From contig BPIR01000002.1 of NCBI GenBank assembly GCA_026004215.1, positions 1,115,031 through 1,179,030 on the forward strand: a stretch of 64,000 nucleotides of DNA, written 5' to 3'. Shown here one piece after another: positions 22,630-47,948 of the stretch. Made by a program: the position numbers and the translations under genes. Numbering within the stretch: position 1 is the stretch's first letter; every line of letters begins with the position of its first letter. Origin of the DNA: Candidatus Binatia bacterium. Lineage in GTDB: Bacteria > Desulfobacterota > Binatia > HRBIN30. The notes under the pieces are model-generated. The model was given only the letters and a program-made list of their open reading frames with translations, searched no databases and had not been told where the DNA came from.

Positions 22630-23004
22630 CTTTCTTCGCAGTCGAGACGTTGCGAGGCCTTGGGCCCGGGTGAACCGGCATCGAAACGCCGGCATTCGTA
22701 GCGCGCTGAGCTCGTCCCGCTGGGCGTGCAACCAATTGCGGCTAGCGGAGCGGTCGGATCAGCGGTGCTTGCGCTTGGTAGGAAAAAACGCTCGATCGAG
22801 CGGCGCAGCGTCGTGCCTCTTCCCGAGGTTTGAGTGGCGCTCCCGTGCGTGGAAGGCGGCCTTTGCAAGTTCGGCGAAAGCTCGGCAGTGGCCCCAGCCG
22901 ATGCGTGAAACAATAGACGCCTCACCCTGCTCCTAGGAAGAGGTCAGCCGCAGGCCGGGTGAGTTTGGATGAGATGGCGAATGGCGGGAGGTGAGTGGGG
23001 AAGT

Positions 23005-23032
23005 GTAGGGGCGCACGGCCGTGCGCCCCTAC
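23005..23032. repeat. REP-like perfect palindrome GTAGGGGCGCACGG|CCGTGCGCCCCTAC.
   Basis: This 28-nt perfect inverted repeat was read directly. It is preceded by GGTGAGTGGGGAAGT microsatellite-like sequence. Confidence 0.6.
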
Positions 23033-23097
23033 ATGCCTCGGTATTTGGCTGCTTCGCCGGAAACGGACCCTGACCCTATCCCTTCGTCGGGGATGTG

Positions 23098-23310
23098 TTA
23101 CCGGCAGATGAGCGTTGCAGGATCACAAACACCGCTCTGGCAGTCGATGCTGCGACTGCATGGGTCGCCGGGTTGCCCCAAAGCTGGCGTGGCCGTGGGT
23201 GTCGGCCGCGCCGGCGGCGTCGGGATGAATCCGCCCACCACGATATCGTCGCCGCCGCAACCGGCGGCCAGCGAGAGAAACGCGGCACACGCCAGGCTCG
23301 CGATCAATCC
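23098..23310 (-). CDS. Possible small Cys-rich lipoprotein. The start is uncertain (TTG).
   Basis: The sequence reads IASLACAAFLSLAAGCGGDD, then a PT-rich stretch, then DPCSRSIDCQSGVCDPATLIC. The lipobox and linker style match the neighbouring lipoproteins. Confidence 0.25.
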   Translation of the reverse strand, partial: GLIASLACAAFLSLAAGCGGDDIVVGGFIPTPPARPTPTATPALGQPGDPCSRSIDCQSGVCDPATLICR

Positions 23311-23417
23311 GCGCCAGACACCGAGGGACCCGGGTGCGCCCACCGGGAGCTGGCCACACAAAGGCACCGCGGGTGGGGAAACGATCCACCGACCGTTAGC
23401 GTGCGGGCGCGGTGCGC

Positions 23418-29630: not shown

Positions 29631-29704
29631 CGGGGTGTAGCGCAGCCTGGTAGCGCACCTGCCTTGGGCGCAGGGAGTCGGAGGTTCAAATCCTCTCACC
29701 CCGA
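29631..29704 (+). tRNA. tRNA-Pro (anticodon TGG).
   Basis: A manually folded cloverleaf gives acceptor CGGGGTG/CACCCCG, anticodon loop CTTGGGC and T-loop TTCAAAT. No CCA is encoded. Confidence 0.75.
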
Positions 29705-29746
29705 TTGATCTTCAACGAACAAAACCATTGTCAGCAACGCGTACGG

Positions 29747-29820
<74 letters not shown>

Positions 29821-29903
29821 CTATCCGAAGTTCCCGCCCTGGGCTTGCGAGCGGCGTAGGCTTTGCGTATCCGTGTCATCCCGTCAGAACGGCGCGACCT
29901 TGC

Positions 29904-29977
29904 GGTGAGTGTAGCTCAACTGGCAGAGCACCGGACTGTGGCTCCGGGGGTTGAGGGTTCGAGCCCCTTCACTCACC
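29904..29977 (+). tRNA. tRNA-His (anticodon GTG) with an encoded G-1.
   Basis: An extra 5' G pairs with the C73 discriminator. The acceptor is GTGAGTG/CACTCAC and the anticodon loop CTGTGGC. Confidence 0.75.
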
Positions 29978-29981
29978 CATA

Positions 29982-30089
29982 TCGCATCCGGCACCACCTT
30001 GCCACTAATCCCCTGCGCTGGCACCTCGACCGCGAAAACCCTGCCCGAAGCGGCACGAATCCCGCTGGAGGAGGAATGGTTCGGGGTAA
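29982..30089 (+). pseudogene. 3'-terminal fragment of a Y1 transposase (last ~35 codons: ...ATNPLRWHLDRENPARSGTNP...WFG) abutting tRNA-His.
   Basis: It aligns to the C-terminal tails of copies A and B and has no N-terminal part. Confidence 0.55.
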
Positions 30090-30237
30090 CAAGGCGTTCT
30101 GTGTCGCGTTGACCCTCGCGCCGTGGACGACGTGGTGTTTGATGTCTTGGGTTTGACGGCAGGGGAGCGGGAGGCGGTGTACGAGGCGGTAATTGAGCTG
30201 TGCGTGCGCGGCTGGAGAAGGCAAGGAGTGTATAGCC

Positions 30238-30919
<682 letters not shown>

Positions 30920-31056
30920 GTGTCGCGTGACCCTCGCGCCGTGGACGACGTGGTGTTTGATGTCTTGGGTTTGACGGCCGGGGAGCGGAAGGCGGTGTAC
31001 GAGGCGGTAATTGAGCTCGTCCGCGCGCGGCTGGAGAAGGCAAGGAGTGTATAGCC

Positions 31057-31753
<697 letters not shown>

Positions 31754-31815
31754 ACGTAGCAGCAAATATTGCGCCCGTGCCGGTGTGGGTGCGAAGCGAT
31801 GCCGGGCGGGGTCGC

Positions 31816-31956
31816 CGAACAGCGTTGGTTCGACATCCCAATTCATTTCCCGCACGTGGTATTGGGCGCGTTGGTGGTGATGCCCAATCATGTCCATGGC
31901 ATTATCGTTCTTGTCGGGCCGGATGATGTAGGGGCGGGTTCGAAACCCGCCCCTAC
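31816..31956 (+). pseudogene. Third, more divergent Y1 transposase fragment. It contains only the HuH region (WFDIPIHFPHVVLGALVVMPNHVHGIIVLV) and ends in a REP-like palindrome at 31928..31956.
   Basis: The fragment is homologous to residues ~55-100 of copies A and B. Its palindrome, GTAGGGGCGGGTTCGAAACCCGCCCCTAC, sits at the same position after HuH. The fragment is open in-frame into the downstream moxR ORF. Confidence 0.5.
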
Positions 31957-31999
31957 CGCGGGTTGCACGGCCGGTGGCCTACCGATACCAAAAGGGCTC

Positions 32000-32881
32000 A
32001 TGTCGCAGGACAACGGCTTCAGGAAATTCCAAGGAACCGCAGGATACGTCGCCTCGCCCGCTTTGGTGGAGGCTGTCAACTGTGCCATCGCCCTCGAGCG
32101 CCCGCTGCTGATCAAGGGCGAACCGGGCACGGGCAAAACGGTGCTGGCGCGGCACGTCGCCGAAGGGCTCGGCCTCAAAATGCTGTCGTGGCACATCAAG
32201 TCCACCAGCAAAGCCGCCGAGGGTCTCTACGTGTACGACACAGTGCAGCGCCTTAATGACAGCCGCTTTGGAACCGGCGACGTCTCCGACATTCGCCGCT
32301 ACATCAAACTCGGCCCTCTCGGGCAAGCATTTGCCTCGCCAGAACGGGTGGTTCTTCTCATTGACGAAATCGACAAGGCCGACCTCGAATTCCCGAACGA
32401 CTTGCTGCGCGAGCTCGACGAAATGCGCTTCACCATCATCGAAACAGGCGAAGAAATCGTCGCGCGCCACCGCCCGATCGTCATTATTACCTCGAACAAC
32501 GAAAAGGAGCTGCCCGACGCTTTTCTGCGCCGCTGTATCTTCTACTACATCGAGTTCCCCGACCCTGCGCTCATGCGGCGCATCGTGGCGGTACACCACC
32601 CTCACCTGGATGCCAAGCTCCTCGACCAAGTCCTCATCAAATTTTACTGGCTGCGAGAACAGCGCGAGCTGCGCAAAAAACCTTCCACGTCGGAACTCAT
32701 CGACTGGATCGCGGCCCTGGTGCGCGCCGGCGTGAGCTTGGAGAAAATCGAGCAGCACATTCCTTTCGTGGGGGCGCTTCTCAAGAAGGAACAAGACGTG
32801 GACGCTTTGCAGCGTTACGACGCTGCGGGAGGACGTTTCCCCAAGTCGTGGGCGGAGCTCGGCCCGCGATACAATCAATGA
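32000..32881 (+). CDS. MoxR-family AAA+ ATPase (CoxD-like).
   Basis: Walker A (LLIKGEPGTGKT) and Walker B (VLLIDEIDKA) motifs are present in a protein of about 293 aa. The start is placed at the ATG at 32000. The upstream in-frame extension is a transposase fragment. Confidence 0.8.
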   Translation: MSQDNGFRKFQGTAGYVASPALVEAVNCAIALERPLLIKGEPGTGKTVLARHVAEGLGLKMLSWHIKSTSKAAEGLYVYDTVQRLNDSRFGTGDVSDIRRYIKLGPLGQAFASPERVVLLIDEIDKADLEFPNDLLRELDEMRFTIIETGEEIVARHRPIVIITSNNEKELPDAFLRRCIFYYIEFPDPALMRRIVAVHHPHLDAKLLDQVLIKFYWLREQRELRKKPSTSELIDWIAALVRAGVSLEKIEQHIPFVGALLKKEQDVDALQRYDAAGGRFPKSWAELGPRYNQ

Positions 32882-32900
32882 GCGAGGCGCCGAGGGGCAG

Positions 32901-34106
32901 ATGTTCCTCGATTTGTTCTACGGGCTCCGCGAAGAAGGTGTTCCCGTCGGCATCCAGGAATGGATGACGTTTCTGGAGGCCCTGGAAAAAGGCCTGCACG
33001 GCTCGAGCTTGCTGGGATTTTATCAGCTCGGACGAGCTTGCCTGATCAAGAGCGAGACCTACTTCGATGCTTACGATCGCGTGTTTGCGCGTGTGTTCCG
33101 CGGTGTCGAAGGCTCATTTGGCGACGAGGTCGTAGAAAAAGTGCTGCAGTGGCTCCGCGATCCGAAGAACTTCCCCAACCTTACGCCGGAGCAGCTCGCG
33201 CAACTCGAGCGCCTGAGCCACGACGAGCTCATGCGGCGCTTTCTGGAAACGCTGGAGAAACAAACGGAACGCCACGATGGGGGCGACCGTTGGATCGGCA
33301 CGGGGGGACGTTCGCCATTTGGTCACTCCGGACAGCACCCCACCGGAATCCGCGTGGGCGGCCCGCCGCGCAGCCGCTCTGCCATGAAGGTGGCGGAAGA
33401 GCGGCGCTTTCGTGACTATCGCACCGATGTGAGCTTGGACGTGCGGCAGATCCGCGTGGCTTTACGGCGGCTGCGCCACTTGACCCGCACGGGCGAGGCC
33501 ACCGAGCTAGATCTGGATCGCACGGTAGACGAAACGTGCCGCAACGCAGGTGAAATCGAGCTGGTGTTCCGCCCGCCCCGGCGAAACGACGTGCGGCTGC
33601 TGCTTCTCATGGATGTCGGCGGTACGATGGATCCCTACTTCGAGCCGGTGAGCCAATTGCTGACGGCGCTACATGAAGAGCGGGGTTTGCGAGCCTTCGA
33701 GGCGTACTACTTCCACAACTGCATTTACGATCACGTGTACAGCCGTGCCCGCATGTTTCGCAGCGATGCCGTGCCCACGGGCGATTTGTTGCGCCGCTTG
33801 GACTCGCGATGGAAAGTGCTGATCGTCGGAGATGCATCCATGCATCCTGCAGAGCTCCTCGAGCCGTTCGGCAACATCGATCCCCGGCGAGTCTCGGCAA
33901 CTCCAGGGATTGTCTGGCTGCAACGGATTGCCGCGCATTTCGAGCGCAGCGTGTGGGTGAACCCGGAGAAACCGCCGTATTGGGATGCCGACACCTGCCG
34001 GATCATTCGCAAGCTGTTTCCGATGTTTTATCTGAGCGTTGACGGACTCACTGAAGCCGTGCAAGCTTTGGTCGGCGCGCGGCCGGCGGCAACCGGCCAC
34101 GCTTGA
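32901..34106 (+). CDS. VWA-domain protein, CoxE-like.
   Basis: A MoxR partner-type VWA domain (LLLMDVGGTMDP ... MIDAS-like DxS/T) lies immediately downstream of the MoxR ATPase. Confidence 0.75.
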   Translation: MFLDLFYGLREEGVPVGIQEWMTFLEALEKGLHGSSLLGFYQLGRACLIKSETYFDAYDRVFARVFRGVEGSFGDEVVEKVLQWLRDPKNFPNLTPEQLAQLERLSHDELMRRFLETLEKQTERHDGGDRWIGTGGRSPFGHSGQHPTGIRVGGPPRSRSAMKVAEERRFRDYRTDVSLDVRQIRVALRRLRHLTRTGEATELDLDRTVDETCRNAGEIELVFRPPRRNDVRLLLLMDVGGTMDPYFEPVSQLLTALHEERGLRAFEAYYFHNCIYDHVYSRARMFRSDAVPTGDLLRRLDSRWKVLIVGDASMHPAELLEPFGNIDPRRVSATPGIVWLQRIAAHFERSVWVNPEKPPYWDADTCRIIRKLFPMFYLSVDGLTEAVQALVGARPAATGHA

Positions 34107-34141
34107 GTTTCCGGCCGACGTTCGTAAACGGAGGTGGTGCC

Positions 34142-34768
34142 ATGAAACTGTGGAGCGAAAGTTTTACCGATGGCGGACGCATTCCCGAGCGTTGCGCGTT
34201 CGGAAGGTACAACCCGCAAACGCACGTCGAGTTGAGCGACAACAAAAATCCCCACCTGGCATGGTCCGGTCTGCCCGCGGGTACAAAATCGCTGGTGCTC
34301 CTCTGTCACGACTCCGATGTGCCCAGCCGCGCTGACGACGTGAACAAGGAGGGCGCGGCCGTTCCGGCATCGCTCCCGCGGGTGGACTTTTTCCACTGGG
34401 TGTTAGTGGACCTGGATCCGAGCATCACGGAAATTGCCGAAGGCGAATTCTCCAACGGCATCGTGCCCCACGGCAAGCCCGGGCCGGAAGGGCCACGCGG
34501 CACGCGCCAGGGGATCAACGATTACACAAACTGGTTTGCCAACGACCCGCAAATGGCGGGTGACTATTATGGTTACGACGGTCCCTGCCCGCCGTGGAAC
34601 GACGAAATCGTTCACCACTACCACTTCACCTTGTATGCCACCGACTTCGACCGCTTCCCTCTGAGCGGCAAGTTTACCGGCGGGGATGTACTGCGCGCCT
34701 TGCAAGGTCATGTGCTCGCCCAAGCGCGCATCACCGGCACATACGCGATCAACCCGAATGCGCGCTGA
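34142..34768 (+). CDS. YbhB/YbcL-family PEBP (Raf-kinase-inhibitor-like) protein.
   Basis: The sequence SLVLLCHDSDVPS...FFHWVLVDLD...GPCPPWNDEIVHHYHFTLYA is typical of bacterial PEBP. A GGAGGTG RBS precedes it. Confidence 0.75.
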   Translation: MKLWSESFTDGGRIPERCAFGRYNPQTHVELSDNKNPHLAWSGLPAGTKSLVLLCHDSDVPSRADDVNKEGAAVPASLPRVDFFHWVLVDLDPSITEIAEGEFSNGIVPHGKPGPEGPRGTRQGINDYTNWFANDPQMAGDYYGYDGPCPPWNDEIVHHYHFTLYATDFDRFPLSGKFTGGDVLRALQGHVLAQARITGTYAINPNAR

Positions 34769-34795
34769 GGCAAGCGGCGCCGCGAGGTCGTTACC

Positions 34796-37700
34796 TTAGG
34801 CAGGAGTTGCCTGGGTCTTTACGCCGAACCACAAGGCGTACAAGGCCGGAAGCAACAACAGCGTAATGACCGTACCCGCAGTCACTCCGCCCATTAGCGC
34901 AATCGCCATGGGCCCCCAAAACGTGTCGGTCGCAAGCGGTACGAATGCGAGCACAGCGGCGGCGGCGGTGAGAACGACGGGCCGCGCGCGCCGGACTGTC
35001 GCTTCTACAATTGCGGCACGGGGAGCCATGCCGGCATCGAGGTTGTCGTCCACCTGCTTGGCCAAAATGAGGGTGTTGCGCATGAGAATCCCGGCCAAGC
35101 CAATCAGCCCTAACATGGCCACGAAACCGAGCGGCTTTTGCGCCAGCAGGAGCGCCGGTACGGCCCCGGCAATCCCTAGGGGAGCGGTAGCCACAACCAG
35201 GAACGTCCCGCGAAACGTCCGCATTTGCAACATGATGACCAAGAGCATCAAGAGCACCATGATCGGTTGCACGGCCCGGATCGAGCGTTCACCCTTTTGA
35301 GACTGCTCGACCGTGCCGCTGATTTCCACGTGGTACCCGATCGGTAAACGGGCGCGCAGAGGGCCGAGATCGTTCCAGATCTGCCAAGTTACGTCGGCGG
35401 CTTGAGCGCCCGCAACTTCGGCATTGACGGCGATGAACGGCTGGCGATTGTAACGCTTCAACACCGGATCCTCGAATTCCAGCTCTAGGGTGCCGACCTG
35501 TTCGAGCGCAACGGAACGACCGTCGAGAGTTTTCAACTCCACCCCGTCCAGTGCGCTCTTGCCTTCACCCCGGATGTACAAAGGCACTCCACGAATATCC
35601 TCGCGCAGCTCCGTGGTCGGCACCCCGCCGAACTGGAACTGAAGCTGTTGTGCGAGTTCCCGAGGGGTCAGGCCGATGGCGCGCAATCGCTCGCGGTCGA
35701 TGCGCCAGCGCAACACCGGTACTCGCTCCTGCCACTCGAGATGCGCATCCACCGTGTAGGGGTTGCGCGCCACGACGTCGCGAACCTCGCGCGCGAGACG
35801 TCGCAGCTCCAGGACGTCGGGACCCAGCACGCGAAAACTCACCGGCCATTGCACCGGCGGACCGTACAGTAGCGTGTGGGCGCGCACCCGTGCCTCGGGA
35901 AACTCGCCGCGTGCTACCGCCTCGCGAATGGCGGCGAGAACAGCCTCCCGCTCACGGGCGGAAGCGGTTACCGCCACAATTTTAGCGAAGGAGGAGCTCG
36001 GCATTTCCGGATTGAGGGAAATAAAAAACCGCGGGGCGCCTGCGCCGACGTAGGCCGACAATGTGCGTACCTCGGGGCGCTCTCGCAAAAAGTTTTCCAT
36101 GCGGCGCGCCACCTGGTCGGTCACTTCGATGCTCGTGCCCTGCGGCAAATAGAGATCCACAATGACCTCGCCCCGATCCGATTGCGGAAAGAATTGCCGC
36201 GGAACAGCAACTCCCATGACCACGATACTCAGCGCCAAAATAGCCCCACTGACCAGCGCGACACGCAGCCGGTGCTGCACACACCACTCGATCGCACCCC
36301 GCAAGCGCTGGTAGGCAGGAGTGGCATACAGCGAGTCTTCGGTGGTGTGGTGCACTCGATAATCGGGCAACAGGGTTACCCCGAGGTACGGCGTGAACAC
36401 GACGGCCACCAGCCAAGAGACCAGGAGAGCGTACGCCAGCACCCAAAACATGTTGCCCGCATATTCACCGACACCGGAACGCGCGAACCCAATCGGCAAA
36501 AATCCGAGTGCGGTGACGACCGTGCCGGTAAGCATGGGGGCCGCCGTTACATTCCACGCGTGTGCGGCAGCCGCCGCTCTTTCCCAACCTTCTTCCAGTT
36601 TCACGATCATCATCTCGATCGCAATAATCGCATCGTCCACGAGAAGCCCGAGTGCCACGATCAAGGCTCCGAGCGAAATGCGATCGAGGTTGATGCCGGT
36701 CATGCGCATGAGCAAAAAAGTGATGCCCAAGGTGAGGGGCACGGCAATGCCCACCACGATGCCGGCGCGAAAGCCGAGAGCGAGCAAGCTCACCAACATG
36801 ACCACGCCCACGGCAATGAAAAACTTTACTTCGAACAGTTCGACGGCGGCGGAAATGGCGTGCGCTTGGTTGGTGACCTCATCCAAGTGCAAGCCCAACG
36901 GCAGCAACTCGCGCTGGTGCGCCAAGAATTCATTGAGCCGGGCACCCAGCTCCAAACCGTTTTCCCCCTTGCGCATGATCACGCCCAACAAGACGGCGTC
37001 CTGGCCGAAGGCGCGCACCAGGTAAGTGGGCGGGTCCTCGTATCCACGATACACCTCGGCAATTTCTCCGAGGGTCACAACGCGGCCTCCGATCCGCAGG
37101 GGCACTGCCCGGATGGCGTCCAGGTCGGCAAGGTCGGCATCCACGCGCAGGAACAAACGCGGCCCTTGCCCCTCGAAAAGCCCAGCCGGCAACAAGCGAT
37201 TGTAGGCGTCTAGAGCGTCCCAAACCTGGAGTCCGGAAAGGCCCATTTGGGCCAGGCGCGCGTTGTCGAAGCGAACGAAGACCCGCTCCGGGCGCTCGCC
37301 AATGACGTGAACTTCCTGGACGCCGGGAATGGCGTTCAGCCGGTCGCGGATTTTCTCCGCCTCGCGGACCAATTGCCGCGGAGCGAGCCCGGGGGCGGTC
37401 AACGAGTACAAGGCGAAGTACACGTCCGAAAAATCATCGTTCACGAAAGGGCCGAGCACCCCGGGCGGCAAGCGGGGTGCTTCGTCGAGCATGCGCTTGC
37501 GAACCTCGTAAAACAGGTCTGGTACTTTGTTCGCGGGAGTGTAGTCGTGGAACTCGACCACCATGTCCACCCGGCCCGCTCGTGCCGTGGTTTCGACGCG
37601 GTAAAAATACTCCACTTCCTGAATCCGTTTTTCCAAACGGTCGGCGACGAGCTCTTGCATTTGCCGGGCCGTGGCTCCCGGCCACACGGCGGACACCACC

Positions 37701-37849
37701 AAGGCCCGCACTGTGAACGCCGGATCCTCTGCGCGGCCGAGCGACCAGAAAGCCATGGCTCCAGCAGCGCCAACCAGCAAAAGCAAGAACAACGTCACGG
37801 AGCGCTCGCGTACCGCCAGCGCGGAAAGGTTGAAGCCTCCCACCGTCAT
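34796..37849 (-). CDS. RND efflux transporter permease (HAE1/AcrB-like).
   Basis: The protein has about 1017 aa and 12 TM segments in the RND architecture. The ATG at 37849 overlaps the upstream adaptor stop (ATGA). Confidence 0.85.
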   Translation of the reverse strand: MTVGGFNLSALAVRERSVTLFLLLLVGAAGAMAFWSLGRAEDPAFTVRALVVSAVWPGATARQMQELVADRLEKRIQEVEYFYRVETTARAGRVDMVVEFHDYTPANKVPDLFYEVRKRMLDEAPRLPPGVLGPFVNDDFSDVYFALYSLTAPGLAPRQLVREAEKIRDRLNAIPGVQEVHVIGERPERVFVRFDNARLAQMGLSGLQVWDALDAYNRLLPAGLFEGQGPRLFLRVDADLADLDAIRAVPLRIGGRVVTLGEIAEVYRGYEDPPTYLVRAFGQDAVLLGVIMRKGENGLELGARLNEFLAHQRELLPLGLHLDEVTNQAHAISAAVELFEVKFFIAVGVVMLVSLLALGFRAGIVVGIAVPLTLGITFLLMRMTGINLDRISLGALIVALGLLVDDAIIAIEMMIVKLEEGWERAAAAAHAWNVTAAPMLTGTVVTALGFLPIGFARSGVGEYAGNMFWVLAYALLVSWLVAVVFTPYLGVTLLPDYRVHHTTEDSLYATPAYQRLRGAIEWCVQHRLRVALVSGAILALSIVVMGVAVPRQFFPQSDRGEVIVDLYLPQGTSIEVTDQVARRMENFLRERPEVRTLSAYVGAGAPRFFISLNPEMPSSSFAKIVAVTASAREREAVLAAIREAVARGEFPEARVRAHTLLYGPPVQWPVSFRVLGPDVLELRRLAREVRDVVARNPYTVDAHLEWQERVPVLRWRIDRERLRAIGLTPRELAQQLQFQFGGVPTTELREDIRGVPLYIRGEGKSALDGVELKTLDGRSVALEQVGTLELEFEDPVLKRYNRQPFIAVNAEVAGAQAADVTWQIWNDLGPLRARLPIGYHVEISGTVEQSQKGERSIRAVQPIMVLLMLLVIMLQMRTFRGTFLVVATAPLGIAGAVPALLLAQKPLGFVAMLGLIGLAGILMRNTLILAKQVDDNLDAGMAPRAAIVEATVRRARPVVLTAAAAVLAFVPLATDTFWGPMAIALMGGVTAGTVITLLLLPALYALWFGVKTQATPA

Positions 37850-38925
37850 GGTGCTACCCGTACGGTTTGCCCGGGTTGCAAGAGATGCACGCCCAAGGCC
37901 ACGACCGCTGCGTCGGCGGGCAGGTCCCCCGCGATCAACGCCGTGTCGCCATCGACCGAACGTACGCGCACCGGTACGAGCTCCACGTGCTGGTCGCGCA
38001 CCAACCAAACGTGTGCGCCCTCACCGTTCTCGTAAACGGCCGAGGCGGGCACCCGCTGGAGGCGCTGGCCGTCTTCTTCGAACACGAGCCGCACGGTCAC
38101 CCCGAGCGGCAAGTTTGCGGTGTCGCCTTCCAGCGCAAAGCGCGCGCGCCAGGTGCGCGCAATCGGATCGGCACTGCCCGCGATTTCCCGCAACTGTGCC
38201 TGCCACTCCCGCGCATCGCCCCACACCCAAGCCGTGGCTCGGGTAGGCGGCTTTGCCTGCCGGCTCTCGGGCAAAAACACCTCGGCCTCGCGCGGCCCGT
38301 CGAGAGCAACGAACGCCACCACCTGCCCCGGCGCCACCACTTGCCCGGCCTCGGCCTGAACCTCGGCGACAATGCCGTCCGTGGGTGCCGTCAAGCGCGT
38401 GTAATCCAGCAGGTTTCGTGCTTGTGCGAGTTGCGATTCCGCAGCGCGCACGCGCTCGCGTGCGGCTGTGGCTGCCGTAGCGGCCATTTCGTACGCTTGC
38501 TCGGCGACGATTTTCTGCTCCCTGAGGCTGGCTGCCCGCAGGCGCTCTCGTTCCGCCTGCTCGGCTTCGGCCCGTGCGGCGGCAAGCTGCGCCTCGGCGG
38601 CTCGAACGGCTTGCTGGGGATCCTGATCGTCCAAAACAAACAGCAACTGCCCGGCTGCAACCCGCTCGCCCGCTTGCACGAAACGCTGGCGGATTTGCCC
38701 CCCGATGCGGAAAGCTACTGGAGTTTCGTGGCGGGCACGAATCGTACCCGAGAGACTCCAGGTGCGTCCGGTTGCGGGTTCCACCTTCACGGTGCGCACC
38801 AAAGGCGGCAATTCGCGCGTTGCCGGGTCTGGCTTCCGCGTGCATCCGATGGACAAAATCACCCCGCACATTGCCACGGCCGAGCAGATGTGCGACCAAG
38901 CGTTTGCTCTTCGATTGCAGTACAT
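37846..38925 (-). CDS. RND efflux periplasmic adaptor (membrane fusion protein), lipoprotein.
   Basis: The signal peptide ends in ILSIGC. A coiled-coil hairpin (AAARAEAEQAERERLRAAS...) and beta-barrel/MP domains follow. Confidence 0.75.
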   Translation of the reverse strand: MYCNRRANAWSHICSAVAMCGVILSIGCTRKPDPATRELPPLVRTVKVEPATGRTWSLSGTIRARHETPVAFRIGGQIRQRFVQAGERVAAGQLLFVLDDQDPQQAVRAAEAQLAAARAEAEQAERERLRAASLREQKIVAEQAYEMAATAATAARERVRAAESQLAQARNLLDYTRLTAPTDGIVAEVQAEAGQVVAPGQVVAFVALDGPREAEVFLPESRQAKPPTRATAWVWGDAREWQAQLREIAGSADPIARTWRARFALEGDTANLPLGVTVRLVFEEDGQRLQRVPASAVYENGEGAHVWLVRDQHVELVPVRVRSVDGDTALIAGDLPADAAVVALGVHLLQPGQTVRVAP

Positions 38926-38964
38926 GGGCGCAGCACAGATTATGTGAACGGAGCCGTTCAGTAA

Positions 38965-39636
38965 ATGGGCGAGAGACGAGATCGCCACCGGAGCTCCAAG
39001 AGGCCACAGGGCGCGACCCAGCGGGCGCGGGGGCGGCCACGCGACCCGCAGAAACGCGAGGCCATCGTTCGAGCGGCGGAGCGACTTTTGTTCGCCGCGG
39101 ATCCGCAGTTGTTGCGAATGGAGCGCATTGCCCAGGAAGCCGGGGTTTCCAAGGCAACGCTCTATGCGTATTTTCCCAACCTGAATGCAGTGCTGAGAGC
39201 GGTGATTCAGAACCATCGCGCAACGATGACTGCAGCTTTGGACCGCTCCCCCCGGCACACCGCCGACGTGCGCGCCGCCCTGGTGGAGTTCGGTGACGCG
39301 TTGTTGGACTTTATCACCGGGAAAGAGGCCCTAGCGGTGCAGCGCATGCTGGCAGCCGACCCGGTTTTGCGGCGGCGGGTCGGTTCGCTGATTTATCGCG
39401 AGGGTCCGGCGGCGATGCGCAGCAAAGTGGCCCAGTGGATCGATCTCGCGCGGATTCGGGGCGATTTGCGGATCGGCGATCCCGAACGGGCGGCGGAGCA
39501 ACTGCTCGGAATGTGGCAGGGCACGCTGACGGTTGCGCTGCTCATGGGAGCACGACCCCGCCCGAGCGCGGCAGAGCGCCGGCGCATCGTGCGCGAGGCC
39601 GTGGACGTGTGGTTGCGAGCCCACGCCCCAGTTTAG
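38965..39636 (+). CDS. TetR/AcrR-family transcriptional regulator, divergent from the RND operon.
   Basis: The N-terminal HTH reads REAIVRAAERLLF...ERIAQEAGVSKATLYAYFPN. Confidence 0.75.
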   Translation: MGERRDRHRSSKRPQGATQRARGRPRDPQKREAIVRAAERLLFAADPQLLRMERIAQEAGVSKATLYAYFPNLNAVLRAVIQNHRATMTAALDRSPRHTADVRAALVEFGDALLDFITGKEALAVQRMLAADPVLRRRVGSLIYREGPAAMRSKVAQWIDLARIRGDLRIGDPERAAEQLLGMWQGTLTVALLMGARPRPSAAERRRIVREAVDVWLRAHAPV

Positions 39637-44951: not shown

Positions 44952-46382
44952 ATGGCCATGGCTTCCGGTATGCCCGAACCCCTCAAGTGGTCTTTGGTGG
45001 AGCTTTGCGCCGCTTTGCGGCGGCGAGAGTTTTCGCCCCGAGAACTGCTGCAATGGACCTGGCAGCGAATCGAAGACACCCGTGAGAAACTCAACGCGGT
45101 CGTAGCCCGGTTCGACTTCGAAATGCTGGAGCGACAAGCGCCGGAGGCCGAGGAACGCCTGCGGTCAGGAGCCGCCCGACCTCTCGAAGGAATTCCTTTG
45201 GGGGTTAAAGACTTGGAGGATGCGGCTGGTTTGCCGACAACGCATGGCTCGTTGCCCTTTCGCGGCAACGTGGCGCAGCAAGACTCGGTGCAGGTCCAAC
45301 GCCTGAAGCAGGCCGGCGCCATCGTGGTCGGCAAGACGAACGCCCCCGAGTTCGGATACACTGCGATTACGAAAAATTTGGTGTACGGCGTGACGCGCTC
45401 GCCGTGGAATCTGGAGCGGACGCCCGGAGGCTCCAGTGGCGGTTCGGCTGCCGCCCTCGCCGGATGTGTTCTGCCGTTGGTGACGGCGAGCGATGGCGGC
45501 GGTTCCATCCGGATCCCGGCTAGTTTTACTGGCTGCTTCGGGTTGAAGGTGTCTTTTGGACGCGTGCCGCGCGGCCCTTCCGATTTTTGGGACTATCAGG
45601 ACACCTCCGTTTACGGCCCGCTGACAAAAACTGTGGAAGACGCGGCTTTGGTTCTCGATCAGGTTGTCGGTCCGTCTCCTTGGGACCCGAACAGCTTGCC
45701 ACATCCGGGCATTTCGTATCTCGCAGCCGTGCGTGGCGACCTGCCGCGCGGCTTGCGCATCGCCTTTTCTCCCGACCTCGGATACGCGGTGGTGCAATCG
45801 GATATCGCCGCAGCGGTGGAAGAAAACGCCCGCGTGTTCGAGCAGCTCGGGCATCGGGTGGAGCACATCCAGGGTGGCCCCCCGCAACTGGGGCGCGAGT
45901 GGGCCATTCTCGGCGCATTCGAACTGGCAGCGCGGTTGCACCATTTGATTCCGGAGAAAGAAAAAGATTTTGGGCGCACGTTCCTGAGTGGGGTGAAGCT
46001 CGGCTGGGAAATGCGACCGGAGATGTGGGGCGAGGCGGCGCGGCTGCGCGCACAATTGAACGCGTGGTGCGCGGAGCTCTTCTCGGAATTCGATGTTTTG
46101 GTCACCCCCACCGTGCCGTACGACCCGCCGCCGGCGGGTGGGCCGTTCCCGCAAGAAACCGAAGGGCGCCCGCAAGTCGTTGCCGGCGTGGCGGCCTTTA
46201 CCATTCCGTTCAACCTCTCTTGGCACCCGGCGGCCACGGTGCGGATCGGTCTTTCAAGGGCCGGGTTACCGATGGGCATGCAGATCGTTGGACCCCGCCA
46301 CCGCGATGACTTGGTGTTGCAATTGGCCCGGGCGTTCGAGCGCGAGCGCCCATGGCACCCGCATTGGCCCGACCGATTTTGA
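44952..46382 (+). CDS. Amidase-signature family enzyme (GatA-like amidase).
   Basis: The amidase signature GGSSGGSAAALAAG and the K...S...S triad context are present. Confidence 0.8.
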   Translation: MAMASGMPEPLKWSLVELCAALRRREFSPRELLQWTWQRIEDTREKLNAVVARFDFEMLERQAPEAEERLRSGAARPLEGIPLGVKDLEDAAGLPTTHGSLPFRGNVAQQDSVQVQRLKQAGAIVVGKTNAPEFGYTAITKNLVYGVTRSPWNLERTPGGSSGGSAAALAGCVLPLVTASDGGGSIRIPASFTGCFGLKVSFGRVPRGPSDFWDYQDTSVYGPLTKTVEDAALVLDQVVGPSPWDPNSLPHPGISYLAAVRGDLPRGLRIAFSPDLGYAVVQSDIAAAVEENARVFEQLGHRVEHIQGGPPQLGREWAILGAFELAARLHHLIPEKEKDFGRTFLSGVKLGWEMRPEMWGEAARLRAQLNAWCAELFSEFDVLVTPTVPYDPPPAGGPFPQETEGRPQVVAGVAAFTIPFNLSWHPAATVRIGLSRAGLPMGMQIVGPRHRDDLVLQLARAFERERPWHPHWPDRF

Positions 46383-46439
46383 CGCCAGCAGCGGCGCCAA
46401 CAGGCGCTTTTCTCAGTCGAGAGACACCCCTCGTTTCCA

Positions 46440-46654
46440 GTAGGGGCAAGGGCGACCACAACGGTCGCCCCTACAACGCCCCGGAGGAGGTCGGGAAGGG
46501 GTATGGCGAGTAGCGAGTGGTGAGTGGCAAGTGGCAAATGGCGAATAGCGAATGGCCCGGAGGCCGTAGGGGCACGGCGTGCCGTGCCCCTACACCCCGG
46601 CGGTCTGCCTGTAGCCACCGCAGGGGAAGGGCGACCACAAGGGAGGCCCCGACA
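46440..46654. repeat. Cluster of three REP-like GTAGGGGC-N-GCCCCTAC palindromes flanking a GAGTGG/GAATGG microsatellite.
   Basis: The cluster lies in the intergenic region between the amidase and the Old Yellow Enzyme gene. The palindromes are at 46440..46474, 46566..46593 and, degenerate, 46622..46654. The microsatellite is at 46504..46555. Confidence 0.6.
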
Positions 46655-46700
46655 ACGTTCAGGGAGAGGCCGGCGGAGAGCCGGGTGAGGGTGCGAAGAC

Positions 46701-47948
46701 ATGTCGCGATTTGGGGAAGGTCGAGAGACGCTCGCTCCAACCCTTGACTCCGAAGGCGCTCGCTTTCCGGATCCGTTCGCACCAGCACCGCTGGGTCCGA
46801 TCCGGCTCAAGAACCGCTTGATCAAAGCGGCAACCTTCGAAGGGCGGGCTCGACGCGGAGAAGTGACCGATTCTTTGATTGCATTCCACCGCGCCTTTGC
46901 CCGCGGCGGTGTGGCACTGACGACACTGGCTTACTGCGCCGTCAGCGAGGACGGGCGGGGCGCTCCCAACGAGATCGTTGTGACGCGTGCGTCCCTGGCA
47001 GGGCTCAGCCGTCTGGCTGAGGCCGTGCATGAAGAAGGTGCAGCCGCGGCGATTCAGCTCGGCCACGCCGGTCCAGTAGGAATCACCGTCGGGCAGGGAT
47101 TAGGACCATCGCGTCGTTTTGTTGCGCGTGCCTTGCGCTTTCTGCGCGCTGCTGAGGAGGCCGACCTTCGCCGCATCGTGCGGGCCTTCGGCGAAGCCGC
47201 CGCGCTGGCGTGCGACGCTGGCTTCGACGCAATCGAGTTACACTTTGGCCACGGCTATTTAGTGAGTGCGTTTTTGAGTCCTCGCTTGAACCGGCGGCGC
47301 GATGCGTGGGGAGGGGGATTGCCGCAACGAGCGAGGTTGGCACGGGAAATTGCGGCTACGGTGCGCGAGCGGGTGGGCCGGAGCATGGCCGTGATCGCCA
47401 AGTGGAACATGAGCGATGGGGTCGAAGGGGGGCTTACGGTAAGCGAGAGCCTGGGAGCGGCGCGCTTGTTGGAGGGAGACGGTCACTTGGACGCTTTGGA
47501 ACTTACGGGCGGTAGCTCGTTCGAAAACCCCATGTTCTTGTTCCGCGGCGACGTTCCTTTGCGAGAAATGGCGGCGGCCTTCCCGGTTTGGTTGCGACTA
47601 CCCTTTCGGTTGCTCGGACGCCGGTTTTTGCGCGCGTATCCGTTCGAGGAGCTGTTCTTCCTGCCCTTCGCACGCGAGTTTCGTGCGGCCTTGCGCATGC
47701 CGCTGATCTTACTGGGGGGCGTGAGCCGTCTCGAAAATGTCCGCACCGCTTTGCGAGAGGGTTTTGACTTCGTGGCTTTGGGGCGCGCTTTGCTGCGCGA
47801 GCCAGATTTAGTGGCCCGTTGGGCGCGCGGCGATGTCGATCGAGCTGCGTGCATCCACTGCAACAAGTGCATGGCCACAATTTACCGAGGCACGCACTGC
47901 GTGTACGTGCCCGCAGAGCAGCGCCCTGGTTTTGCGCTGAAAGCCTGA
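46701..47948 (+). CDS. Old Yellow Enzyme-family NADH:flavin oxidoreductase with a C-terminal Cys cluster.
   Basis: The TIM-barrel FMN motifs HFGHGYLVSAFLSPRLNRRRDAWGG and a C-terminal CIHCNKC...C are present. Confidence 0.8.
   Translation: MSRFGEGRETLAPTLDSEGARFPDPFAPAPLGPIRLKNRLIKAATFEGRARRGEVTDSLIAFHRAFARGGVALTTLAYCAVSEDGRGAPNEIVVTRASLAGLSRLAEAVHEEGAAAAIQLGHAGPVGITVGQGLGPSRRFVARALRFLRAAEEADLRRIVRAFGEAAALACDAGFDAIELHFGHGYLVSAFLSPRLNRRRDAWGGGLPQRARLAREIAATVRERVGRSMAVIAKWNMSDGVEGGLTVSESLGAARLLEGDGHLDALELTGGSSFENPMFLFRGDVPLREMAAAFPVWLRLPFRLLGRRFLRAYPFEELFFLPFAREFRAALRMPLILLGGVSRLENVRTALREGFDFVALGRALLREPDLVARWARGDVDRAACIHCNKCMATIYRGTHCVYVPAEQRPGFALKA

What the first reader, a model, noticed from the sequence alone, without database searches (positions are those of the whole stretch)
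46440..46654. Cluster of REP-like palindromes with conserved GTAGGGGC/GCCCCTAC arms but unrelated centres, the same arms as the hairpins inside the transposase copies
The amidase/OYE intergenic region holds three palindromes of the GTAGGGGC-N-GCCCCTAC family: GTAGGGGCAAGGGCGACCACAACGGTCGCCCCTAC at 46440..46474, GTAGGGGCACGGCGTGCCGTGCCCCTAC at 46566..46593, and a degenerate third at 46622..46654. Further members with other centres are at 23005 (GCGCACGG|CCGTGCGC), in transposase copies A and B (GCGAAAAATTTTTCGC) and in the third transposase fragment (GCGGGTTCGAAACCCGC). Conserved GTAG...CTAC ends with free-varying loops are what is expected if only the arms and the GTAG tetranucleotide are recognised, which is the known REP/RAYT recognition logic. 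The element family and its cognate, now decayed, transposase therefore appear in one window.
Basis: partly seen in the sequence, partly recalled or inferred. Interest (0 to 1): 0.6.

Follow-up and report, generated by a model that had tools for sequence, protein, structure and literature searches.

The report
Known REP palindromes with dead RAYT genes
The palindromes are real, but they are ordinary members of an already catalogued family of bacterial repeats (REPs with a GTAG foot on both ends) that goes with one subclass of REP-associated transposase, so the finding rediscovers a known system in a Binatia genome.

Summary
Observation confirmed. The window has six exact GTAGGGGC-N-GCCCCTAC palindromes (0 expected) plus one degenerate copy. 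All intact ones fold far better than shuffles.

Identity: these are REP sequences of TnpA_REP subclass 2.4 (Bertels RAYT group 4). Quentin et al. 2018 already described its 'double foot' REPs and REPs inserted in frame inside the transposase gene. Their Table S1 lists the exact 28-mer of copies A/B, and a 24-nt REP identical to the first 24 nt of the 46566 element.

- The 'centres' are stem, not free loops; they show compensatory covariation.
- Centres are specific to RAYT lineages. In-gene and flanking REPs share the centre in 8 of 11 homologous loci, against 3.5% for unrelated pairs.
- All five centre types in the window differ, so the dead RAYT copies are not shown to be cognate to the extragenic REPs.
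- The 46440 element is a single-foot REP on the minus strand.

New here: three related Binatia genomes have amidase and OYE abutting (0-32 nt). The window's 318-nt spacer is therefore an insertion, and it supplies a new OYE start codon.

Side finding: this RAYT clade sits inside type I restriction-modification operons (R-M genes in 15 of 36 long loci, 0 of 120 controls).

The parts
46440..46474 (-). REP-a. A canonical single-foot 'long' REP on the minus strand, GTAG-GGGCGACC-GTTGT-GGTCGCCC (46450-46474), plus an extra inverted foot GTAGGGGC at 46440-46447.
   Evidence: The same REP, with one loop difference, flanks an intact RAYT as an inverted pair in L190.
46504..46556 (.). A 7.6-copy heptamer array (TGGCGAG-like) between REP-a and REP-b. 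It is local filler and not a general companion of these REPs.
   Evidence: Tandem Repeats Finder. In one search, none of 250 REP flanks from 120 other genomes approaches its period-7 score.
46566..46593 (.). REP-b. A 28-nt 'double foot' REP, GTAGGGGC-ACGGCGTGCCGT-GCCCCTAC, with 13 of 14 pairs.
   Evidence: The identical 28-mer occurs in L046. A 24-nt REP identical to its first 24 nt (GTAGGGGCACGGCGTGCCGTGCCC) is listed in Table S1 of Quentin 2018. It is one step from the centres ACGGCGCGCCGT and ACGGCATGCCGT, which go with RAYTs in L162, L148, L123 and L137.
46622..46654 (-). REP-a'. A degenerate copy of REP-a that no longer folds. It arose with its flank as a local direct duplication.
   Evidence: 51-nt direct repeat 46444-46494 / 46623-46673, 78% identity; z = -0.1.
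46404..46760 (.). The whole lineage-specific insertion (about 350 nt) in the amidase/OYE junction. It carries the three REPs, the heptamer array and the new OYE start codon (ATG at 46701). The boundaries are approximate.
   Evidence: L207, L208 and L209 have amidase stop and OYE start overlapping or 32 nt apart. Window homology breaks after about 46410 and resumes at about 46760.
23005..23032 (.). A perfect 28-nt double-foot REP, GTAGGGGC-GCACGGCCGTGC-GCCCCTAC, in a stretch without a clear coding signal.
   Evidence: This was the commonest centre in the cross-genome sample (7 of 129).
29980..30089 (+). A 3' fragment of a RAYT gene that abuts tRNA-His (29905-29978).
   Evidence: tblastn to P0001 residues 165-192.
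30238..30908 (+). RAYT pseudogene copy A, with two frameshifts. The in-frame REP is at 30516-30543. It is followed by a 21-nt tandem array of right half-arms at 30533-30626.
30929..31054 (+). Remnant of the 3' end of an Eco57I/MmeI-type restriction-modification gene (...DDVVFDVLGLTAGERKAVYEAVIELVRARLEKARSV*). It is repeated before each RAYT copy; the first copy lies at about 30110-30235.
   Evidence: It is 68% identical over 37 aa to the C-terminus of the Eco57I_C-domain gene directly upstream of the RAYT in L125.
31057..31753 (+). RAYT pseudogene copy B, frameshifted. The REP is at 31333-31360 and the half-arm tandem array at 31350-31469. The unit is 91% identical to unit A, with 21 gap openings.
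31805..31957 (+). Fragment C. It is the middle part of a second, more divergent RAYT and is cut off right after its internal REP (31928-31956). A MoxR-type AAA ATPase gene follows.
   Evidence: The REP is confirmed in the independent assembly L001.

Best explanation
What it is: the palindromes are REP sequences of the kind that accompanies TnpA_REP subclass 2.4 (RAYT group 4).

Anatomy:
- Each has a GTAG 'foot' followed by a G+C-rich stem that starts GGGC.
- In the common 28-nt 'double foot' form the foot is present on both ends. Either DNA strand can therefore fold into a GTAG-footed hairpin.

Proposed mechanism, by analogy with E. coli TnpA_REP:
- The hairpin forms on transiently single-stranded DNA.
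- The HUH/tyrosine enzyme binds the stem and the foot.
- It cuts and rejoins the strand next to the foot, which lets REPs be copied to new places.
- Each enzyme lineage keeps its own stem sequence. It carries one copy in frame inside its own gene, in the variable linker after the HuH motif, and usually one copy on each side of the gene.

State in this window:
- The enzyme genes are dead. There are two frameshifted tandem copies and two fragments next to a tRNA cluster.
- Their internal REPs differ from the three extragenic REP types.
- The extragenic REPs are therefore relics, or are served by a RAYT elsewhere in the genome.
- One cluster, with about 300 nt of accompanying DNA, was inserted into the overlapping stop/start junction of an amidase-OYE gene pair. 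It now provides the OYE start codon.

Shown here: the sequences, folding, covariation, family assignment, the REP-RAYT(REP)-REP layout in homologues, the lineage-specific centres and the insertion polymorphism.

Inferred: action on single-stranded DNA, mobilisation by a RAYT, and which RAYT is responsible.
For: Non-random and structured:
- Enrichment in the window.
- Fold z-scores of -4.1 to -7.8.
- In 48 distinct 28-mers from 120 genomes, 95.8% of cells are paired against 78.9% in shuffles and at most 49% when the partners are slid. There are 129 double-sided changes.

Enzyme family:
- NCBIfam NF047646, 68.9 bits, E = 4e-19.
- Pfam Y1_Tnp, E = 3e-4.
- The only PDB match is 4ER8 TnpA_REP, aligned across HuH, WQ and the Y motif.
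- More than 8000 homologues, some named RayT by JGI.

DNA-level, not protein-level, selection:
- 105 of 120 homologues carry the palindrome read in one frame (GAKNFSP and similar).
- 7 carry it in another frame (GRGEKxFAPT).

REPtron layout and lineage-specific centres:
- L137, L162, L123, L148 and L167 show it clearly.
- 8 of 11 loci are concordant, against 3.5% for unrelated pairs.

Mostly extragenic elsewhere: 20% of REPs lie deep inside long open frames, against 68% of random positions.

Insertion: three related genomes lack the spacer and have no GTAGGGGC in 36 kb.

Literature:
- Quentin et al. 2018 (PMC6006769) describe subclass 2.4, double-foot REPs and in-frame REPs inside tnpA_REP.
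- Their Table S1 holds the exact 28-mer of copies A/B and a 24-nt entry identical to the first 24 nt of REP-b.
- REP processing on single-stranded DNA is from PMC8266576 and PMC3479197.
Against: - No intact RAYT lies in the window, and no extragenic REP shares a centre with the dead copies. No enzyme-substrate pair is demonstrated here.
- Copy number is low: three extragenic sites in 64 kb. Genome-wide abundance is untested.
- The insert at the amidase/OYE junction is about 350 nt, mostly non-REP DNA. It contains a local 51-nt duplication and has a 7-nt direct repeat (AGGCGCT) at both junctions. A Y1 transposase is not expected to produce such a repeat.
- 78% of 28-mers are self-complementary even in the four central bases. 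A hairpin does not require this.
- Nobody has assayed a subclass 2.4 enzyme. The mechanism is borrowed from groups 2 and 3.
- The HMM scores of the stitched pseudogene are below the curated cut-offs (68.9 against 80; 21.2 against 23).
Confidence: 0.85

Rival explanations
1. The palindromes serve mainly as RNA or transcription elements, such as terminators, mRNA 3'-end stabilisers or operon punctuation between amidase and OYE. Their spread would then reflect selection for that role rather than mobilisation by a transposase.
For: - REPs in E. coli are known to stabilise upstream mRNA and lie mostly downstream of genes (Di Nocera 2013).
- REP-a and REP-b sit just after the amidase stop in a co-directional gene pair.
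- The stems are very stable.
Against: - No T-run terminator and no sigma-70-like promoter were found in 46300-46800.
- The same palindromes lie in frame inside coding sequence in more than 100 RAYT homologues.
- The 8-nt arms are identical across phyla, and the centres track the neighbouring RAYT gene. A generic terminator role does not predict this.
- Relatives run the two genes with overlapping stop and start and no such element.
- This role can coexist with the main explanation; it is not exclusive.
Confidence: 0.2
2. The 28-mers are recognised or created as symmetric double-stranded palindromes. The agent would be a dimeric DNA-binding protein, or cruciform or fold-back synthesis. The hairpin on single-stranded DNA would then not be the relevant form.
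For: - 121 of 153 28-mers are self-complementary in the central four bases, against about 1 in 16 by chance. The central pairs are 78% complementary.
- Length is tightly fixed at 28 nt: 84 of 128 arm-anchored hits.
- Quentin 2018 note that a double foot could arise by central deletion in an inverted REP dimer.
Against: - Single-foot versions with true loops belong to the same family and flank RAYTs in the same way (L190, L168, L174, window REP-a).
- 29-mers with an unpaired central base are common: 25 of 128.
- All tested Y1 enzymes act on single-stranded hairpins.
- Central symmetry can be a by-product of template-switch repair of quasi-palindromes. This last point rests on general knowledge and was not tested here.
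Confidence: 0.1
3. The roughly 350-nt block in the amidase/OYE junction arrived as one unit by a route unrelated to RAYT. Candidates are a MITE-like element moved by a DDE transposase, or illegitimate recombination or duplication. Its REPs would then be passengers.
For: - AGGCGCT is present at both junctions (46404 and 46754), where relatives have one similar copy.
- Most of the block is not REP.
- There is an internal 51-nt direct duplication and a GTCGAGAGAC repeat.
Against: - No terminal inverted repeats were found.
- No second copy of the non-REP parts exists in the window or in 1.5 Mb of fetched loci. Only the REPs themselves recur.
- A 7-nt repeat with flexible boundaries can be chance.
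Confidence: 0.15
4. The motif is a compositional or assembly artefact.
For: None beyond the fact that the genome is 63% G+C and that the RAYT copies lie at a repeat where a short-read assembly breaks.
Against: - Shuffles give 0.00 matches against 6 observed.
- An independent assembly reproduces fragment C's REP.
- The same 28-mers occur in over 100 unrelated genomes and in a published table.
Confidence: 0.01

Closest known systems
REPtrons of TnpA_REP subclass 2.4 (Quentin, Siguier, Chandler and Fichant 2018, BMC Genomics 19:475), equal to RAYT group 4 of Bertels et al. 2017
   Same: - HuH motif NHVH, the WQ motif and the Y-x-x-x-N-P motif.
- A variable-length insertion after HuH that holds an in-frame REP and short tandem repeats.
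- 'Long' and 'double foot' REPs that start GTAGGGGC.
- A patchy distribution across phyla.
- The exact 28-mer GTAGGGGCGAAAAATTTTTCGCCCCTAC is listed for Caldilinea aerophila, and a 24-nt REP identical to the first 24 nt of REP-b is listed under CBL47335.1.
   Different: - The RAYT genes here are pseudogenes in a tandem array and lack flanking REPs.
- The host phylum (Binatia) is not in that survey.
- The extragenic REPs in the window belong to other sub-families than the in-gene REPs.
E. coli REP / BIME with TnpA_REP (subclass 2.2, group 2; structure 4ER8)
   Same: - A GTAG foot 5' of a G+C-rich hairpin.
- A HUH/Y1 enzyme with the same catalytic motifs. It is the only PDB sequence match.
- The presumed action on single-stranded DNA.
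   Different: - E. coli REPs are imperfect palindromes with a bulge and a single foot. They are arranged as inverted pairs (BIME/REPIN) in hundreds of copies and are never inside the transposase gene.
- Here the palindromes are perfect, often double-footed, low in copy number in the window, not in inverted doublets, and present inside the gene.
GTAG-tagged REP superfamily (Di Nocera et al. 2013, BMC Genomics 14:522)
   Same: - A GTAG tag at the end of short palindromic repeats.
- Presence in Cyanobacteria, Chloroflexi and the PVC group.
- Occasional in-frame location inside genes.
- REPs whose TAG serves as a stop codon.
   Different: That survey's main text does not give these sequences. Assignment to one of its 24 GTAG families could not be checked.
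IS200/IS605 insertion sequences
   Same: A related Y1 HUH transposase that recognises subterminal hairpins on single-stranded DNA, with a 5' tetranucleotide guide.
   Different: - The IS200 Y motif is Y-x-x-x-Q, whereas here it is Y-x-x-x-N-P.
- There is no tnpB, and no IS ends bracket the gene.
- The hairpins are dispersed on their own.

Membership tests
REP (GTAG-tagged repetitive extragenic palindrome) | A 5' GT[AG]G tetranucleotide at the foot of the hairpin | tested here: met
   All seven elements start GTAG on at least one strand. The degenerate copy has GTCG.
REP (GTAG-tagged repetitive extragenic palindrome) | A short (20-40 nt) G+C-rich palindrome able to fold as a single strand | tested here: met
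   Free energies of -10.9 to -16.8 kcal/mol and z-scores of -4.1 to -7.8 for the six intact copies. Covariation is seen across 48 distinct 28-mers.
REP (GTAG-tagged repetitive extragenic palindrome) | Many dispersed copies in extragenic DNA of one genome | tested here: inconclusive
   There are three extragenic copies at two sites in 64 kb. In other genomes 80% are not deep inside long open frames. The genome-wide count for the source MAG is not obtainable with these tools.
REP (GTAG-tagged repetitive extragenic palindrome) | Association with a RAYT / tnpA_REP gene flanked by the same REP (REPtron) | tested here: inconclusive
   Met for the family: 8 of 11 homologous loci have matching in-gene and flanking REPs. 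In the window the RAYT copies have an internal REP only, and no extragenic REP shares their centre.
REPIN / BIME | Two REPs in inverted orientation at a fixed short distance | tested here: not met
   REP-a and REP-a' are direct repeats 179 nt apart. The 28-mers are self-symmetric singletons.
TnpA_REP subclass 2.4 / RAYT group 4 | HuH motif NH[IFV]H, W motif WQ, Y motif YIxNNP (class 2 signature Y-x-x-x-N-P) | tested here: met
   MPNHVHG occurs in A, B and C. VWQRNYYEH and REYIATNP occur in A and B. YIATNP fits the class 2 signature and five of the six positions of the subclass motif given.
TnpA_REP subclass 2.4 / RAYT group 4 | A variable insertion after the HuH motif (between HuH and the Y motif) carrying an in-frame REP | tested here: met
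   REPs at 30516, 31333 and 31928 follow HuH by 7-9 codons. 112 of 120 homologues show the same.
TnpA_REP subclass 2.4 / RAYT group 4 | A score above the curated threshold of a family HMM | tested here: not met
   The stitched pseudogene without its linker scores NF047646 68.9 bits (cut-off 80) and PF01797 21.2 bits (cut-off 23). The E-values are significant (4e-19, 3e-4) and the hits are to the right families. The shortfall is expected for a divergent subclass and a repaired pseudogene.
TnpA_REP subclass 2.4 / RAYT group 4 | An intact, potentially active gene | tested here: not met
   Copy A needs two frame changes and copy B at least one. The other two pieces are fragments.
IS200/IS605 | Y motif Y-x-x-x-Q, tnpB partner, IS ends with subterminal hairpins, high identity between copies | tested here: not met
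   The Y motif is YIATNP. No tnpB-like ORF lies next to the copies. Units A and B are 91% identical with 21 gap openings.

The most novel reading that the evidence does not exclude
The RAYT clade to which the window's dead copies belong is a regular resident of restriction-modification operons.

The pattern:
- The order is hsdM-(hsdS)-RAYT-hsdR, always co-directional and often with overlapping stop and start.
- Some members sit after Eco57I/MmeI-type genes instead.
- The window's copies still carry the last ~40 codons of such a gene.

The novel reading is that this is a functional partnership rather than hitch-hiking. The single-strand nuclease and its REPs might act as an accessory of the defence system. 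Alternatively they might be the vehicle that moves or rearranges R-M operons between phyla, which would explain why identical 8-nt REP arms occur from Cyanobacteria to Binatia.

I found no mention of this link in the papers searched.
Probability: 0.2. Interest if true: 0.65.

Novelty: already known. Interest (0 to 1): 0.28.

Why it matters
For the finding as given, very little. It adds a Binatia genome to a REP/RAYT class that was described in 2018 down to the exact sequence.

Three results are of modest use to specialists:

1. A clean presence/absence case. A REP cluster split an overlapping amidase-OYE junction and donated a new start codon. This illustrates how REPs remodel operons and protein N-termini.

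2. Quantitative evidence that the variable 'centre' of double-foot REPs is stem under compensatory evolution and tracks the RAYT lineage. This argues that subclass 2.4 enzymes read the stem sequence and not only the GTAG foot.

3. The strong co-location of this RAYT clade with type I restriction-modification operons. If it is functional, it would connect REP biology with defence islands and would suggest a route for the cross-phylum spread of these elements.

Tried and rejected
Heptamer arrays as part of the element: rejected. The first REP-adjacent array (46504-46556) looked as if it recurred at 22970-23000 and in L024. However, none of 250 REP flanks from 120 genomes, nor the 23005 flank itself, reaches a comparable period-7 score.

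The insert as a repeated unit: rejected. Only the REPs of the 371-nt insert recur in the window or in the fetched loci.

Exact-protein look-ups: the amidase and OYE failed. The source was identified through the VWA protein and the OYE homologue search.

Pfam scans of the raw ORF pieces of the RAYT copies gave nothing. Stitching across the frameshifts was needed.

My first tblastn screen suggested almost no RAYT near the genome-scan palindromes: 2 of 129 inside a gene. This is real. Most copies in genomes are extragenic singletons.

Other checks:
- No sigma-70 promoter or intrinsic terminator lies in the spacer.
- PADLOC has no model for these RAYTs.
- The family is nearly absent from viral contigs: 3 distant hits.
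- Pfam could not define the genes around 23005. Codon-position G+C suggests the stretch 22930-23400 is non-coding.
- A CRISPR reading was considered and dropped, because there are no arrays or spacers.
- The main text of Di Nocera 2013 holds none of these sequences.

Full report
**1.

The spacer between the amidase gene (44952-46382) and the OYE-family flavin oxidoreductase gene (46701-47948) contains the three elements described.
- Across the window, GTAGGGGC-N(4-30)-GCCCCTAC has six exact matches against a shuffle mean of 0.00.
- The 8-mer GTAGGGGC occurs 16 times against 1.37 expected.
- As single-stranded DNA the six intact elements fold at -10.9 to -16.8 kcal/mol, with z-scores of -4.1 to -7.8. 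The third spacer element has decayed (z = -0.1).
- An independent short-read assembly (L001) is 99.81% identical to 31724-39624 without gaps. It starts inside copy B and reproduces the palindrome of fragment C.

**2. The genes with the same palindromes.**

A cluster of three tRNA genes (Pro, Arg, His) ends at 29978. Directly after it come:
- a 3' fragment of a RAYT gene (29980-30089);
- copy A (30238-30908);
- copy B (31057-31753);
- fragment C (31805-31957), which runs into a MoxR-type AAA ATPase gene.

Copy A needs two frame changes and copy B at least one. Units A and B are 91% identical with 21 gap openings.

The stitched protein has these features:
- It has MPNHVHG (HuH), VWQRNYYEH (W motif) and REYIATNP (Y-x-x-x-N-P).
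- It hits NCBIfam REP_Tyr_transpos at E = 4e-19 (68.9 bits, cut-off 80) and Pfam Y1_Tnp at E = 3e-4 (21.2 bits, cut-off 23).
- Its only match among PDB sequences is E. coli TnpA_REP 4ER8, aligned over all three motifs.
- It has more than 8000 homologues in many phyla, some named 'REP element-mobilizing transposase RayT'.

There is no intact RAYT in the window.

**3. This is a described system.**

Quentin, Siguier, Chandler and Fichant (2018, PMC6006769) define TnpA_REP subclass 2.4, equal to group 4 of Bertels et al. 2017. Its features are:
- motifs NH[IFV]H, WQ and YIxNNP;
- a variable insertion in the core;
- 'long' and 'double foot' REPs, with 5' GT[AG]G and 3' C[TC]AC;
- uniquely, REPs inserted in frame inside tnpA_REP between HuH and Y, with short DNA repeats in the same region.

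Their Table S1 contains GTAGGGGC 105 times.
- It lists the exact 28-mer of copies A/B (GTAGGGGCGAAAAATTTTTCGCCCCTAC, Caldilinea aerophila, double foot).
- It lists GTAGGGGCACGGCGTGCCGTGCCC (CBL47335.1), which is identical to the first 24 nt of the 46566 element.
- It lists GTAGGGGCGACCGGCCGGTCGCCCCTAC (Chloroflexus aggregans).

The GTAG-tagged REP superfamily was surveyed by Di Nocera et al. 2013. The finding is therefore a rediscovery. The host, a Candidatus Binatia MAG, is merely a new place to see it.

**4. The centres are stem, not loops.**

These come from Cyanobacteria, Chloroflexota, Acidobacteriota, Bacteroidota, Firmicutes, Proteobacteria and others.
- Of 128 arm-anchored matches, 84 are exactly 28 nt, and 59 of those are perfect palindromes.
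- On 48 distinct 28-mers the four variable stem pairs are 98.8% paired.
- The whole structure has 129 double-sided changes against 41 in shuffles. Pairing collapses to 37-49% when the partners are slid.
- Even the central four bases are self-complementary in 121 of 153 cases. A hairpin does not need this, and I leave it unexplained.
- The palindromes are mostly extragenic: 20% lie deep in long open frames against 68% of random positions.

**5. The centres follow the enzyme.**

I fetched 84 loci that encode relatives of the window's RAYT.
- 37 have a double-foot REP inside the gene.
- The typical layout is a REP 7-85 nt upstream, a REP in the gene, and a REP 7-78 nt downstream. L137, L162, L123, L148 and L167 show it.
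- In 11 loci with both in-gene and nearby REPs, 8 have a flank centre within one mismatch of the in-gene centre. The figure for between-locus pairs is 3.5%.

At the protein level the same DNA is read in two frames. GAKNFSP-type occurs in 105 of 120 homologues and GRGEKxFAPT in 7, so the palindrome is conserved and not a peptide. The GARHAVP and GATHASP centres go with a different C-terminal half of the protein.

Co-inheritance explains part of this. However, flanking REPs are separate sequences, and SELEX work on other groups shows that stem and loop positions matter (PMC8266576). The statement that only arms and GTAG are recognised is therefore not supported.

**6. Consequence for the window.**

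Five centre types occur in the window:
- GAAAAATTTTTC in copies A and B;
- GGGTTCGAAACCC in fragment C;
- GCACGGCCGTGC at 23005;
- ACGGCGTGCCGT at 46566;
- GGGCGACC/GGTCGCCC at 46450-46474 and its decayed copy.

No extragenic REP matches an in-gene REP.
- The 46566 centre is one substitution from both ACGGCGCGCCGT and ACGGCATGCCGT, which belong to RAYTs in L162, L148, L123 and L137.
- The 46440 element is a single-foot REP on the minus strand. Its twin flanks an intact RAYT as an inverted pair in L190.

The dead RAYTs are thus of the right subclass but are not shown to be the cognate enzymes. Cross-activity cannot be excluded, because several loci carry more than one REP type near one RAYT (Quentin 2018). 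There are no inverted doublets, since REP-a and REP-a' are direct repeats.

**7. The spacer is an insertion.**

Three related Binatia loci were compared (OYE 89%, 78% and 77% identical). In them the amidase stop overlaps the OYE start (TGATG) or lies 32 nt before it.
- In the window the old start reads ACG.
- Homology runs on for about 25 nt, breaks, and resumes at the DPFAP codons near 46760.
- The current ATG at 46701 lies in the inserted DNA.
- The relatives have no GTAGGGGC in 36 kb.

About 350 nt were therefore inserted into the first codons of OYE, replacing its N-terminus.

The insert is not a simple REP.
- It holds a heptamer array and a 51-nt internal duplication.
- It has AGGCGCT at both junctions.
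- None of its non-REP parts recurs elsewhere.
- The heptamer array is not a general companion of these REPs.

**8. Side finding.**

The RAYT homologues are embedded in restriction-modification operons.
- In Kallotenue papyrolyticum the gene overlaps the hsdS stop and the hsdR start.
- In L125 it follows an MmeI/Eco57I-type gene.
- Pfam scans of neighbours give Methylase_S, N6_Mtase and HsdM_N upstream, and HSDR_N and ResIII downstream.
- By tblastn, 15 of 36 loci of at least 6 kb have R-M genes. Where type I genes are found they are always co-directional in the order hsdM-(hsdS)-RAYT-hsdR. None of 120 REP-anchored control loci (897 kb) has them.
- The 150-nt spacer before each RAYT copy in the window encodes the C-terminus of such a gene. 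It is 68% identical over 37 aa to the L125 protein and ends at the same KARSV stop.

I found no mention of this link in Quentin 2018, Bertels 2017 or three further literature searches. PADLOC has no model for the protein. The family is nearly absent from viral contigs.

**9. Verdict.**

- The kind of element is already known, down to identical sequences.
- Interest is low for the finding itself.
- The insertion polymorphism, the lineage-specific centres and the R-M linkage are modest additions. Only the R-M linkage might be new.

Noticed in passing
L122 5908-13551; L127, L128, L132, L133, L136, L139-L141, L144, L145, L150, L155, L172, L176; window 30110-30235 and 30929-31054: Relatives of the window's RAYT lie inside type I restriction-modification operons, in the co-directional order hsdM-(hsdS)-RAYT-hsdR, or after Eco57I/MmeI-type genes. 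R-M genes occur in 15 of 36 long loci against 0 of 120 control loci. The window's RAYT copies are each preceded by the last ~40 codons of an Eco57I-like gene. The link was not mentioned in the papers I searched.
   Followed up: partly
window 30533-30626 and 31350-31469: Right after the in-gene REP, the right half-arm is repeated in tandem with a 21-nt period (TTCGCCCCTACCATCCCCACA, 4.4 and 5.4 copies). Homologous proteins show the mirror image: tandem left half-arms, such as VGAKN repeated up to nine times in P0017, P0057 and P0071. This points to slippage or repeated cutting and joining at the REP. It probably corresponds to the 'short repeats' noted by Quentin 2018.
   Followed up: partly
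window 46404-46410 / 46754-46760, 46416 / 46720, 46444-46494 / 46623-46673: The insert in the amidase/OYE junction has a 7-nt direct repeat (AGGCGCT) at both junctions. It also has a 10-nt repeat (GTCGAGAGAC) near both ends and an internal 51-nt duplication at 78% identity. A Y1 transposase should leave no target duplication, so how the block arrived is unclear.
   Followed up: partly
window 46383-46385 and 46701: The ancestral OYE start codon, which overlapped the amidase stop (TGATG in relatives), is now ACG. Translation must start at an ATG inside the inserted DNA. This gives a new 23-residue N-terminus before the conserved DPFAP.
   Followed up: yes
L002-L206 (28-nt REPs from many genomes): About 79% of 28-nt double-foot REPs are self-complementary even in the central four bases (CATG, CGCG, GGCC, AATT and TGCA dominate). 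The length is held at exactly 28 nt. Neither feature is needed for a hairpin.
   Followed up: partly
window 29631-29978: A cluster of tRNA-Pro(TGG), tRNA-Arg(TCT) and tRNA-His(GTG). The RAYT fragment array begins 2 nt after tRNA-His. This is typical of islands that accumulate next to tRNA genes.
   Followed up: no
window 31928-31999: Fragment C of the second RAYT is cut off immediately after its internal REP and joined to the upstream region of a MoxR-type AAA ATPase / VWA gene pair. This suggests a deletion or rearrangement with a breakpoint at the REP.
   Followed up: no
L123 9936-9995 and 10679-10714; L193 8191-8283: Short remnants of the same Eco57I-like C-terminus (…LVRxRLEKARSV) occur on both sides of the RAYT in L123 and downstream of it in L193. 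This resembles the alternating remnant-RAYT pattern in the window. The RAYT may repeatedly land in, or duplicate together with, that gene end.
   Followed up: no
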